The notes beneath the pieces are model-generated. The model had not been told where the DNA came from, ran no database searches, and saw only the letters and a program-made list of their open reading frames with translations. Below are positions 2,884 to 4,508 of a stretch of 6,187 nt of DNA, in pieces (the stretch's first letter is position 1; the number at the start of each line of letters is the position of its first letter). Origin of the DNA: a virus (taxonomy: Duplodnaviria; Heunggongvirae; Uroviricota; Caudoviricetes); the IMG/VR virus record IMGVR_UViG_3300013903_000058; one strand, 5' to 3'. Made by a program: the position numbers and the translations under genes.

Positions 2884-3540
2884 TTAACAATTTCTGGTCG
2901 TGCATAAAATCAGGAACTGGAGTGGTGACGTTACTATATCCAGCGTAAGAGTGACTGGCAGCAGCGCATTAACGAGGCCGTGCGGGACGCCATCTGTTGC
3001 TTTGTACTCATAAAATCCCACCGTAAAGGGTTGATGGAAAACCATCACGTTTGAGTAATCCGCTTTTTTATTTTTCTGGTGGATTGAGCCTTTCAAACCG
3101 TCCAGCATCCATGTACAACGCCGGGTATCACAAATAAAACCATATTGTGTTGCCAGTGCCTTATCTTCTTCGTTGTTCCAGTCGTAATAGAGCGTAATAG
3201 CACCAGAGAAATTCTTATTACTGCTGCTTAAAATAAATTTCGCGTTATCAGAAACGGTGATTCTTTCACCATGGATTGCCGGATCGTTCAGCATTTTAAC
3301 CACCTCATCGCCGCCGGTGGTCAACAGATAGTCCAACGATTCACCAACAAAAACATAGCCTTTCGTACCGTTACTATCTTCTGCCAGCGATAAACCCTTA
3401 ATCGTGTCTGACCGCCATTGCTCGGCATGTGGACGGCTTGCAGTATTGGAAACCAATCCCCAGGTGATACATCCGGTCAACGCAAATGCCAAAGAACACA
3501 AACTGGCAGCCTTGAAAAATCCCTTAAGATTCAACTTCAT
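2884..3540 (-). CDS. yidX: Predicted lipoprotein of unknown function (218 aa)
   Basis: Minus-strand ORF with stop TAA at 2884-2886. Preferred start is ATG at 3538-3540 with SD AAGGA 6 nt upstream; the ORF-track start at 3558 is TTG. N-terminus [24 protein letters not shown] has a basic n-region, hydrophobic core and lipobox LTGC; recognised as E. coli YidX. Confidence 0.88.
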
Positions 3541-3678
3541 GATTAATCCTTTAAACAAGAGTACTAAGCCGTTGAAAGCATACTCTTCTTTCCCCCCAGT
3601 TTAGCGCCTGATCTCCCTTTTCAGATTTTTGCCCGACGTAGAACATTTTCTTATGGATTGTTCTTTTTGTGATCTAAA

Positions 3679-3709
3679 TTGTAGTACAACAATATAACTT
3701 TGTACTACA
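3679..3709. promoter_or_regulatory. Pair of near-palindromic DgoR-type operator sites flanking a candidate -10 hexamer
   Basis: TTGTAGTACAA (3679-3689) and TTGTACTACAT (3699-3709), both matching TTGTA(G/C)TACA(A/T), bracket TATAAC (3693-3698). The palindrome type fits a dimeric GntR/FadR-family regulator. Confidence 0.75.
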
Positions 3710-3742
3710 TTAGGCGCACAGCAAACGCGAACGTCATCACGC

Positions 3743-3754
3743 TGGTACTACAAA
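3743..3754. promoter_or_regulatory. Third copy of the GTACTACA operator-like motif in the dgoR leader
   Basis: TGGTACTACAAA shares the GTACTACA core with the two upstream sites; it lies about 65 bp before the dgoR ATG. Confidence 0.55.
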
Positions 3755-3818
3755 ATTGCCGCGTTATGCATCGATCGGGGTAAAGTAGAGAAGAACATAC
3801 AGAGCACAAGGACTCTCC

Positions 3819-4508
3819 ATGACTCTCAATAAAACCGATCGCATCGTTATTACGCTGGGTAGACAGATCGTTCACGGCAAATACGTGCCAGGCTCGCCGC
3901 TTCCGGCTGAGGCAGAACTCTGTGAGGAGTTTGCAACCTCGCGCAACATCATCCGTGAGGTATTTCGTTCGCTGATGGCGAAGCGGCTGATTGAAATGAA
4001 ACGTTATCGCGGGGCGTTTGTGGCTCCGCGTAACCAGTGGAATTACCTCGACACTGACGTACTGCAATGGGTGCTGGAAAACGACTACGACCCACGGCTT
4101 ATCAGTGCAATGAGCGAAGTGCGAAACCTGGTAGAGCCGGCGATTGCCCGTTGGGCAGCAGAGCGCGCGACCTCCAGCGATCTGGCGCAGATTGAATCGG
4201 CGCTGAACGAGATGATTGCTAACAATCAGGACCGCGAAGCGTTTAACGAAGCGGATATTCGCTACCACGAGGCGGTGCTGCAGTCGGTACATAACCCGGT
4301 GTTACAGCAACTGAGCATTGCGATCAGTTCGCTGCAGCGGGCGGTTTTTGAACGAACCTGGATGGGCGATGAGGCCAACATGCCGCAAACGCTCCAGGAA
4401 CATAAGGCGCTGTTCGATGCGATAAGGCATCAGGACGGCGATGCGGCAGAGCAGGCGGCGCTTACCATGATCGCCAGCTCGACACGAAGGTTAAAGGAAA
4501 TCACATGA
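3819..4508 (+). CDS. dgoR: GntR/FadR-family transcriptional repressor of D-galactonate catabolism (229 aa)
   Basis: ATG 3819 with SD AAGGA (3808-3812). Typical GntR N-terminal winged HTH (LPAEAELCEEFATSRNIIREVFRSLMAKRLIE) and FadR-type C-terminal domain; recognised as DgoR. Stop TGA at 4506-4508 overlaps the dgoK start. Confidence 0.95.
   Translation: MTLNKTDRIVITLGRQIVHGKYVPGSPLPAEAELCEEFATSRNIIREVFRSLMAKRLIEMKRYRGAFVAPRNQWNYLDTDVLQWVLENDYDPRLISAMSEVRNLVEPAIARWAAERATSSDLAQIESALNEMIANNQDREAFNEADIRYHEAVLQSVHNPVLQQLSIAISSLQRAVFERTWMGDEANMPQTLQEHKALFDAIRHQDGDAAEQAALTMIASSTRRLKEIT

What the first reader, a model, noticed from the sequence alone, without database searches (positions are those of the whole stretch)
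3679..3754. Three copies of a GTA(C/G)TACA palindrome in the yidX-dgoR divergent region (DgoR operator array)
Seen in sequence: TTGTAGTACAA (3679-3689), TTGTACTACAT (3699-3709) and TGGTACTACAAA (3743-3754). The first two are 10 bp apart and bracket an AT-rich TATAAC hexamer (3693-3698) that could be the -10 element, so repressor binding would occlude the promoter. Established knowledge: DgoR is a GntR/FadR-family repressor of the dgo operon, released by D-galactonate, and binds inverted repeats of this type. Inference: the third, more degenerate copy could be an auxiliary site; I am unsure whether it is a described operator. This is the main regulatory structure in the window.
Basis: partly seen in the sequence, partly recalled or inferred. 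Interest (0 to 1): 0.45.

Follow-up and report, generated by a model that had tools for sequence, protein, structure and literature searches.

The report
Known DgoR operator array upstream of dgoR
The three palindromes are real and form the control region of the E. coli D-galactonate operon: two are the experimentally proven binding sites of the repressor DgoR and the third was already predicted in 2015, so the finding is correct but ordinary.

Summary
The window is E. coli chromosome (gyrB-yidB-yidA-yidX / dgoRKAD). They are the only matches with at most one mismatch in 6187 bases (3 found, 0.08 expected).

Copies 1 and 2 are the published DgoR operators IR1 and IR2.

Copy 3 appears in the supplementary table of a 2015 comparative-genomics paper as a predicted DgoR site. 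No paper I could read tests it.

My own analysis shows copy 3 is strongly conserved. Nine of its 11 positions are invariant or nearly so (seven strictly invariant) in 80 species representatives. It sits a fixed 38 bp upstream of the -10 element of a second, downstream promoter. It always carries exactly one mismatch, in either the left or the right half-site.

I conclude this is a three-site DgoR array. IR1 and IR2 shut the inducible promoter. Copy 3 is probably a deliberately weak auxiliary operator next to the basal promoter. Novelty is low; only the role of copy 3 remains open.

The parts
3668..3683 (+). CRP site core (TGTGA-N6-TTGTA). The left half, TGTGA, is at 3668-3672. The degenerate right half overlaps IR1 and the -35 region of the inducible promoter P1 (class II arrangement).
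   Evidence: Sort-Seq and Reg-Seq in E. coli K-12. TGTGA lies a fixed distance upstream of IR1 in 86 of 86 loci. The block 3664-3678 carries 1.74 bits per position.
3679..3689 (.). DgoR operator IR1, the perfect palindrome TTGTAGTACAA.
   Evidence: Identical to published IR1. Mutations in this region raise expression, and DgoR was pulled down on it. Identical in 78 of 80 species representatives, 1.97 bits per position.
3693..3698 (+). Not supported as the main -10.
   Evidence: Poorly conserved spacer (0.69 bits per position). This position varies among the sampled E. coli and close relatives, reading TATAAA, TATAAG or TATAAT. It lacks the final T of a -10 hexamer. The published -10 is TACATT.
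3700..3710 (.). DgoR operator IR2, TTGTACTACAT, with one mismatch at position 11.
   Evidence: Published IR2, described as having 'one mismatch'. The start-to-start distance to IR1 is 21 bp in 86 of 86 loci. 1.81 bits per position.
3706..3711 (+). -10 hexamer TACATT of the D-galactonate-inducible, CRP-dependent promoter P1. The inferred transcription start is about 3717-3718.
   Evidence: Named as the wild-type -10 in Belliveau 2018. Reg-Seq coordinates (CRP at -50..-30, DgoR at -37..-28) place the start at about 3718. The start itself is an inference, not mapped here.
3743..3753 (.). Third DgoR-type palindrome, TGGTACTACAA. It has one mismatch at position 2 but fits the FadR-subfamily TKGT-N3-ACMA signature. 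Probable weak auxiliary operator.
   Evidence: Present at the same place in 78 of 80 species representatives. Seven positions are invariant, 1.70 bits per position against 0.71 in the flanking spacer. Predicted as a DgoR site in PMC4494728 S1 File. No binding experiment found.
3756..3761 (+). Probable -35 hexamer TTGCCG of the downstream (basal) promoter P2. It starts 2 bp after copy 3 ends.
   Evidence: It lies inside the RNA polymerase site at -30..-70 relative to the ATG reported by Sort-Seq. T3757 (76 of 80), G3758 (80 of 80) and G3761 (77 of 80) are conserved. The hexamer assignment and the 19-bp spacer are my inference.
3781..3786 (+). Probable -10 hexamer TAAAGT of P2, inside the near-invariant block GGTAAAGTAGAG (3779-3790).
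   Evidence: 1.97 bits per position. It lies within the published RNA polymerase site. The distance from the start of copy 3 is 38 bp in 77 of 79 loci.
3819..4508 (+). dgoR coding sequence (229 aa, GntR plus FCD domains), the first gene of dgoRKADT.
   Evidence: ORF list, RefSeq annotation, homologues with PF00392 and PF07729.
2884..3540 (-). yidX, the divergent neighbour.
   Evidence: RefSeq annotation 'YidX family protein', mapped from L001.

Best explanation
This is the cis-regulatory region of the E. coli dgoRKADT (D-galactonate) operon, and it holds three DgoR-type operators.

IR1 (3679-3689) and IR2 (3700-3710) lie 21 bp apart centre to centre, on one face of the helix. IR1 overlaps the right half of a class II CRP site and the -35 region. 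IR2 contains the -10 hexamer TACATT of the inducible promoter P1, whose transcription start is about 3717-3718. Two DgoR dimers bound here exclude CRP and RNA polymerase. D-galactonate releases DgoR, and cAMP-CRP then activates P1. These steps are shown by published experiments in K-12.

The third copy (3743-3753) is inferred to be a conserved, deliberately sub-optimal DgoR site. It lies at about +30 relative to P1 and about -45 relative to a second, weak promoter P2 (-35 TTGCCG at 3756-3761, -10 TAAAGT at 3781-3786). P2 supplies basal dgoR and dgo expression. DgoR bound at copy 3 would most likely dampen P2 by touching its -35 region, giving negative autoregulation of the basal repressor level. 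It might also tighten repression of P1, because copy 3 sits about four helical turns from IR2.
For: Shown in the literature:
- The IR1 sequence is identical to the published operator, and the two inverted repeats are required for DgoR binding and released by D-galactonate.
- Sort-Seq found a repressor region at -140..-110, DgoR pulled down from it, the effect lost in a dgoR deletion, a class II CRP site with TGTGA, the -10 hexamer TACATT, and a second RNA polymerase site at -30..-70.
- Reg-Seq confirmed CRP and the upstream DgoR site.

Shown here:
- Only these three sites match with at most one mismatch in the window.
- All three occupy the same positions in 78 of 80 species representatives of Enterobacteriaceae and Erwiniaceae, and in weaker form in Serratia, Tatumella, Pantoea and Shimwellia.
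- Copy 3 carries 1.70 bits per position against 0.71 in the spacer, and seven positions are invariant.
- Its central base varies C or G, exactly as the operator consensus allows.
- It satisfies the FadR-subfamily TKGT-N3-ACMA box.
- Mismatches at positions 2 and 8 are mutually exclusive in 80 of 80 sequences, with about 7 switches on the dgoR tree. Independent evolution reproduces this in at most 7 of 17,944 simulations.
- The distance from copy 3 to TAAAGT is 38 bp in 77 of 79 loci. It is kept in 4 of the 5 loci where the IR2-to-copy-3 distance changed.
- SNPs in the sampled E. coli fall in spacers and never in copy 3.
- An independent 2015 study predicted copy 3 as a DgoR site.
Against: - No experiment I could read shows DgoR binding to copy 3. 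The experimental papers describe two inverted repeats and use a 55-nt probe carrying only those.
- The Sort-Seq text reports a repressor-like signal only at -140..-110, although its three 60-bp windows should have covered -76..-66. It also reports P2 as active in glucose with DgoR present. Any repression through copy 3 is therefore weak, or was masked on a 5-10-copy plasmid.
- The P2 hexamers and their 19-bp spacer are my reading. The simple sigma-70 scan found nothing.
- In many genera copy 3 reads TTGTACTGCAA, which breaks the AC of the GT-N3-AC signature.
- One lineage that keeps IR1 and IR2 has lost copy 3 (L092).
- The count of about 7 switches depends on a 687-nt neighbour-joining gene tree.
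Confidence: 0.8

Rival explanations
1. Copy 3 is a downstream auxiliary operator for P1 only. DgoR bound at +30 cooperates with the dimers at IR1 and IR2, through protein contacts on one helix face or a small loop, or blocks elongating polymerase. It has no role at P2.
For: Centre-to-centre distances are 21 bp (IR1 to IR2) and 43 bp (IR2 to copy 3), about 2 and 4 helical turns, and are conserved at 42-44 bp in 85 loci. From my own knowledge: upstream-plus-downstream operator pairs are known for the FadR-family regulator LldR and for the lac and gal repressors.
Against: DgoR is reported as a dimer, and no tetramer is known. Loops of 43-64 bp are very tight. Where the IR2-to-copy-3 spacing changes by one base pair, the distance from copy 3 to the P2 -10 stays fixed, which ties copy 3 to P2 rather than to IR2. 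The 55-nt probe without copy 3 binds DgoR and responds to D-galactonate.
Confidence: 0.2
2. DgoR bound at copy 3, centred near -45 of P2, activates P2. This would guarantee a basal supply of repressor and transporter while P1 is shut, as FadR activates fabA from about -40.
For: P2 is the polymerase site seen in glucose when DgoR is bound. Copy 3 keeps a rigid 38-bp distance to the P2 -10. P2 has a weak -35 and a 19-bp spacer, typical of promoters that need help (my inference). From my own knowledge: FadR, the family prototype, is a dual regulator.
Against: No DgoR activation has been reported. A dgoR deletion gives strong constitutive dgo expression according to the authors' summaries. The Sort-Seq text does not describe an activator site there.
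Confidence: 0.1
3. Copy 3 does not bind DgoR. Its conservation reflects another function, such as an UP-like element or -35-proximal part of P2, a site for another regulator, or an RNA element in the P1 leader.
For: There is no binding experiment. The A-rich right flank ACAAAATTG adjoins the -35 of P2. Sort-Seq annotated the neighbouring stretch as a polymerase site.
Against: The conserved letters are exactly the DgoR palindrome, with GTA.TAC.AA invariant and a free C/G centre. The compensating mismatches at positions 2 and 8 only make sense for a dimer on a palindrome. There is no Rfam match, and the leader folds no better than shuffles (z = -0.70). With a P1 start near 3718, IR2 is not transcribed, so it cannot pair with copy 3 in RNA.
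Confidence: 0.12

Closest known systems
Published DgoR operators IR1 and IR2 of the E. coli K-12 dgo promoter (Singh et al. 2019, J Bacteriol 201:e00281-18, as cited and reprinted in PMC11705089 and PMC12288454)
   Same: Copies 1 and 2 are these operators, base for base. The consensus is the same, 5'-TTGTA(G/C)TACA(A/T)-3'. IR1 is perfect and IR2 has one mismatch, and both overlap the inducible promoter.
   Different: Nothing differs for copies 1 and 2. The published model has two sites, and copy 3 is not part of it. The 2019 paper itself was not available to me.
Comparative-genomics DgoR regulon of Suvorova, Korostelev and Gelfand 2015 (PMC4494728, S1 File)
   Same: It lists all three sites for E. 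coli, including CACGCTGGTACTACAAAGTTG, which is copy 3. It also lists three sites for E. fergusonii, Enterobacter 638, Cronobacter, Klebsiella, Shigella, Salmonella and Serratia.
   Different: It is a prediction only and makes no statement on the role of the third site. It does not note the alternating left-or-right mismatch or the fixed distance to the downstream -10.
Sort-Seq / Reg-Seq architecture of the dgoRKADT promoter (Belliveau 2018, PMC6003448; Ireland 2020, PMC7567609)
   Same: The class II CRP site, the DgoR repression region at -140..-110, the -10 hexamer TACATT and the second polymerase site at -30..-70 all map onto the window without change in these elements.
   Different: These papers do not annotate a DgoR site at -76..-66. 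The Reg-Seq data held cover only -55 to about +5.
Auxiliary weak operators in other repressor systems: lac O2/O3, gal OE/OI, LldR O1/O2, and FadR at fabA (recalled from my own knowledge, not tested here)
   Same: A strong primary operator at the promoter is combined with a weaker, conserved, helically phased extra site downstream of the start.
   Different: DgoR is known only as a dimer. The distances (43-64 bp) are shorter than in classical loops. Here the extra site also abuts a second promoter.

Membership tests
DgoR operator (GntR/FadR-type inverted repeat) | Matches the published operator consensus 5'-TTGTA(G/C)TACA(A/T)-3' | tested here: met
   IR1 matches 11 of 11 and IR2 11 of 11 under the A/T rule. 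Copy 3 matches 10 of 11 (G for T at position 2). These are the only such sites in the window.
DgoR operator (GntR/FadR-type inverted repeat) | FadR-subfamily signature: TKGT and ACMA boxes with 3 nt between GT and AC (PMC4494728) | tested here: met
   TTGT-AGT-ACAA, TTGT-ACT-ACAT (the last base deviates) and TGGT-ACT-ACAA. Copy 3 in E. coli fits the signature fully.
DgoR operator (GntR/FadR-type inverted repeat) | Lies upstream of the operon that encodes the cognate regulator and its catabolic genes | tested here: met
   All three lie 66-140 bp upstream of the dgoR ATG, followed by dgoK, dgoA and dgoD.
DgoR operator (GntR/FadR-type inverted repeat) | Conserved in position and sequence in orthologous dgo promoters | tested here: met
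   Matching with at most one mismatch at the expected position: IR1 in 79 of 80 fetched species loci, IR2 in 73 of 80, copy 3 in 78 of 80. Information content is 1.97, 1.81 and 1.70 bits per position against about 0.7 in the spacers. The sites are also found in Erwiniaceae and Serratia.
DgoR operator (GntR/FadR-type inverted repeat) | Bound by purified DgoR and released by D-galactonate | not testable with these tools
   Published for the IR1 plus IR2 fragment. Nothing found for copy 3.
DgoR operator (GntR/FadR-type inverted repeat) | Mutation of the site derepresses the promoter in a DgoR-dependent way | not testable with these tools
   Published for -140..-110. The text reports no such signal at -76..-66. 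The raw Sort-Seq data are not held, and the Reg-Seq data stop at about +5.
Class II CRP-dependent promoter | CRP site centred near -41.5, overlapping the -35 region, with a weak -35 and a recognisable -10 | tested here: inconclusive
   The geometry fits. The centre of TGTGA-N6-TTGTA is at 3675.5, which is 41.5-42.5 bp before the inferred start at 3717-3718, and the -10 is TACATT. Function is taken from the literature. No transcription start was mapped here.

The most novel reading that the evidence does not exclude
The third palindrome is a functional DgoR operator held by selection at sub-maximal strength. Across Enterobacteriaceae it always has exactly one mismatch, which switches between the left and right half-sites by paired substitutions. 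It is also locked 38 bp upstream of the -10 of a second, basal promoter. This would make it a homeostat that sets the resting level of DgoR, and of basal DgoT and enzymes. That would add a second regulatory layer to the published two-operator model, and it would be an unusually clean natural example of stabilising selection on operator affinity.
Probability: 0.4. Interest if true: 0.35.

Novelty: already known. Interest (0 to 1): 0.2.

Why it matters
D-galactonate use affects gut colonisation by E. coli and Salmonella, and mutations in dgoR and its control region are selected in the host. The two main operators, the CRP site and the repressor mechanism are established, so the finding adds nothing new there. 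The only open point is the third site. If it sets basal DgoR and transporter levels, it would affect induction lag and leakiness of the operon, and it should be included in quantitative models and in DgoR-based biosensor designs.

Tried and rejected
- The sigma-70 and terminator consensus scan of 3540-3830 found nothing. The real promoters are sub-optimal: P1 depends on CRP, and P2 has a 19-bp spacer, outside the scan's 16-18 range.
- Singh et al. 2019 (PMC6351737) is not held. The SI of the PNAS paper is not held either, and the bioRxiv version has no SI text.
- The Reg-Seq supplement was read in the hope of per-base data on copy 3, but the dgoR column covers only -55 to about +5.
- A literature search for the site sequences returned only the two papers that print IR1, plus unrelated hits.
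- A search for genome-wide DgoR binding data (ChIP-exo, SELEX, DAP-seq) found nothing specific.
- An RNA-element reading was rejected. There is no Rfam match at E up to 1, and the 113-nt leader folds no better than shuffles (z = -0.70).
- The pattern search at 2 mismatches was not informative: 9 matches against 3.1 expected, reached by 8 of 200 shuffles.

Full report
**Observation**

- TTGTAGTACAA at 3679-3689.
- TATAAC at 3693-3698.
- TGGTACTACAAA at 3743-3754.

The 8-mer GTASTACA gives 5 strand matches against 0.10 expected. The 11-mer TTGTASTACAA with at most one mismatch hits exactly these three places in 6187 bases against 0.08 expected, and no shuffle of 200 reached three. At two mismatches the pattern loses significance. 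The repeat finder shows the same relations.

**Context**

The window is E. coli chromosome. A 601-base stretch is 100% identical to several RefSeq genomes and is found in 5425 of 5426 complete genomes. The annotation reads gyrB, yidB, yidA, yidX (minus strand), then dgoR, dgoK, dgoA, dgoD (ORFs). The three motifs lie 140, 119 and 76 bases upstream of the dgoR ATG at 3819.

**What is already known**

Two recent papers from the Chaba laboratory print the IR1 oligonucleotide 5'-CTAAATTGTAGTACAACAATAT-3', which is window 3674-3695. [quoted passage not shown] These overlap the dgo promoter and are bound by dimeric DgoR, which D-galactonate releases. An independent structural paper says the same.

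Belliveau et al. 2018 mutagenised three 60-bp windows of this intergenic region. They reported:
- A repressor-like region at -140 to -110 from the ATG, which corresponds to IR1 plus IR2.
- DgoR pulled down from that region, and loss of the effect in a dgoR deletion.
- A class II CRP site whose TGTGA lies at -160 to -140.
- The wild-type -10 hexamer TACATT.
- A separate RNA polymerase site at -30 to -70 that is visible in glucose.

In the window these elements are TGTGA at 3668-3672, TACATT at 3706-3711 (inside IR2), and a stretch of about 3749-3789. Reg-Seq places CRP at -50..-30 and DgoR at -37..-28 from the presumed start. That puts the start near 3718.

It lacks the final T, sits in a poorly conserved spacer, and its last base varies among the sampled E. 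coli and close relatives.

**The third copy in the literature**

The experimental papers never mention copy 3, and a text search for its sequence found nothing relevant. However, the S1 File of Suvorova, Korostelev and Gelfand 2015 lists three predicted DgoR sites for E. coli, the third being CACGCTGGTACTACAAAGTTG. It lists three sites likewise for E. fergusonii, Enterobacter 638, Cronobacter, Klebsiella, Shigella, Salmonella and Serratia.

That paper also gives the FadR-subfamily signature: TKGT and ACMA boxes with 3 nt between GT and AC. E. coli copy 3 (TGGT-ACT-ACAA) fits it fully. So the whole three-site array has been described before, two sites by experiment and one by prediction.

**My own test of copy 3: conservation**

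I fetched 80 orthologous dgoR loci, one per species, all with DgoR at least 90% identical.
- A match with at most one mismatch sits at the copy 3 position in 78 of 80.
- In an alignment of the 230 bases upstream, information content per position is 1.97 (IR1), 1.81 (IR2) and 1.70 (copy 3). The spacers between the sites carry 0.69 and 0.71.
- Seven positions of copy 3 are invariant.
- The centre of copy 3 is C in 73 sequences and G in 7, exactly the freedom the operator consensus allows.

More distant loci keep a weaker site at the same place: Serratia fonticola, Tatumella, Pantoea and Shimwellia. One metagenomic lineage has lost it while keeping IR1 and IR2. In a spread sample of six E. coli genomes, plus Shigella flexneri and Escherichia whittamii, SNPs fall in the spacers and none falls in copy 3.

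**A pattern not in the literature I read**

The only variable positions of copy 3 are position 2 (window 3744) and position 8 (window 3750), and they are mutually exclusive.
- 26 sequences have a non-T at position 2 with A at position 8.
- 54 sequences have T at position 2 with a non-A at position 8.
- None is perfect and none is mismatched at both positions.

On a neighbour-joining tree of dgoR the mismatch changes sides about seven times. Simulating the two positions independently on that tree reproduces the pattern in at most 7 of 17,944 runs. This points to selection for a site of constant, sub-maximal strength. The count depends on a short gene tree and should be repeated on a species tree.

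**Geometry**

- The distance from TGTGA to IR1 is fixed in 86 of 86 loci.
- IR1 to IR2 is 21 bp in 86 of 86 loci.
- IR2 to copy 3 is 43 bp in 78 loci, 42 in 4 and 44 in 3.
- Copy 3 to the near-invariant TAAAGT (3781-3786) is 38 bp in 77 of 79 loci. It stays 38 in four of the five loci where the IR2-to-copy-3 distance changed.

TAAAGT, together with TTGCCG at 3756-3761, fits the published downstream polymerase site. The hexamer assignment and the 19-bp spacer are my inference, and the simple promoter scan found nothing. Copy 3 thus ends 2 bp before the probable -35 of this basal promoter. It is centred near -45 of that promoter and near +30 of the inducible one.

**Mechanism**

Shown by others: DgoR dimers on IR1 and IR2 cover the CRP right half, the -35 region and the -10 of the inducible promoter. 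D-galactonate releases them, and cAMP-CRP then activates transcription.

Inferred here: copy 3 is a weak DgoR operator. Most likely it dampens the basal promoter, giving negative autoregulation of the resting level of DgoR and of the operon. It may also help repression of the main promoter, since it lies about four helical turns from IR2.

The rivals are:
- A pure auxiliary or roadblock role for P1.
- Activation of P2 from about -45, as FadR does at fabA (my own knowledge).
- No DgoR binding at all.

The main argument against any strong role is that the Sort-Seq text reports no repressor signal at -76..-66 and sees P2 active in glucose. That assay used a 5-10-copy plasmid. An RNA explanation is unlikely: there is no Rfam match and no excess folding of the leader.

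**Verdict**

The structure is already known, so interest is low. The only open question is the function of the conserved, always-imperfect third site.

Noticed in passing
window 3779-3790 (GGTAAAGTAGAG): This is a near-invariant 12-base block across 80 species, 30-40 bases upstream of the dgoR ATG. I read it as the -10 (TAAAGT) of the downstream basal promoter reported by Sort-Seq, but no transcription start has been mapped here.
   Followed up: partly
window 3657-3667 (ATTGTTCTTTT), just upstream of the CRP TGTGA: This is a strongly conserved T-rich block (conservation 8-10 out of 10). It extends beyond a normal CRP site. It could be an UP-like contact for the alpha subunit at the class II promoter, or part of the divergent yidX promoter.
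   Followed up: no
IR2, window 3700-3710, in loci L038, L059, L067, L074, L077, L078: IR2 shows the same kind of compensation as copy 3. Most species have TTGTACTACAT (mismatch at position 11), while some have TTGTACTAC[G/C/T]A (mismatch at position 10, consensus A at position 11). In Serratia fonticola and Tatumella the perfect palindrome is IR2 and IR1 is degenerate.
   Followed up: partly
L004 (Shigella flexneri CP182556.1), positions equivalent to window 3669 and 3685-3686: Shigella flexneri has IR1 spoiled (TTGTAGCGCAA) and the CRP half-site changed from TGTGA to TTTGA. The same IR1 variant is in the 2015 table (SF3769). Truncated Shigella DgoR proteins appear in the homologue list (P0100, P0115). 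The regulon looks as if it is decaying.
   Followed up: partly
L087 (E. coli ECCTRSRTH03, NZ_CP041110.1), equivalent to window about 3806 onward: Similarity to the window breaks off 12 bases before the dgoR ATG, and no dgoR is annotated there. This is probably an insertion or rearrangement that removes the repressor gene from its promoter.
   Followed up: no
L085 (E. coli SCU-104), equivalent to window 3707: This is a natural A-to-G change inside IR2 (TTGTACTGCAT). It also alters the P1 -10 from TACATT to TGCATT, so it could affect both repression and promoter strength.
   Followed up: no
L002 and L007 (CP169086.1, CP170191.1, titled Enterobacter hormaechei): These two records carry a dgoR and upstream region identical to E. 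coli, unlike all other Enterobacter loci. The records are probably mislabelled E. coli, or the locus was transferred.
   Followed up: no
window 3650-3820 against E. coli genomes: Only 5022 of 5426 complete genomes match this 171-base promoter by megablast, whereas 5425 match the 601-base query. Most genomes are 96.5% identical, so the window strain belongs to a minority promoter haplotype. There are 11 matches on plasmids, and up to 3 copies per genome.
   Followed up: no
window 3541-3558, minus strand: The mechanical ORF for yidX starts at a TTG at 3558 (224 aa). RefSeq annotates the ATG at 3540 (218 aa). Some records call the product only 'hypothetical protein'.
   Followed up: no
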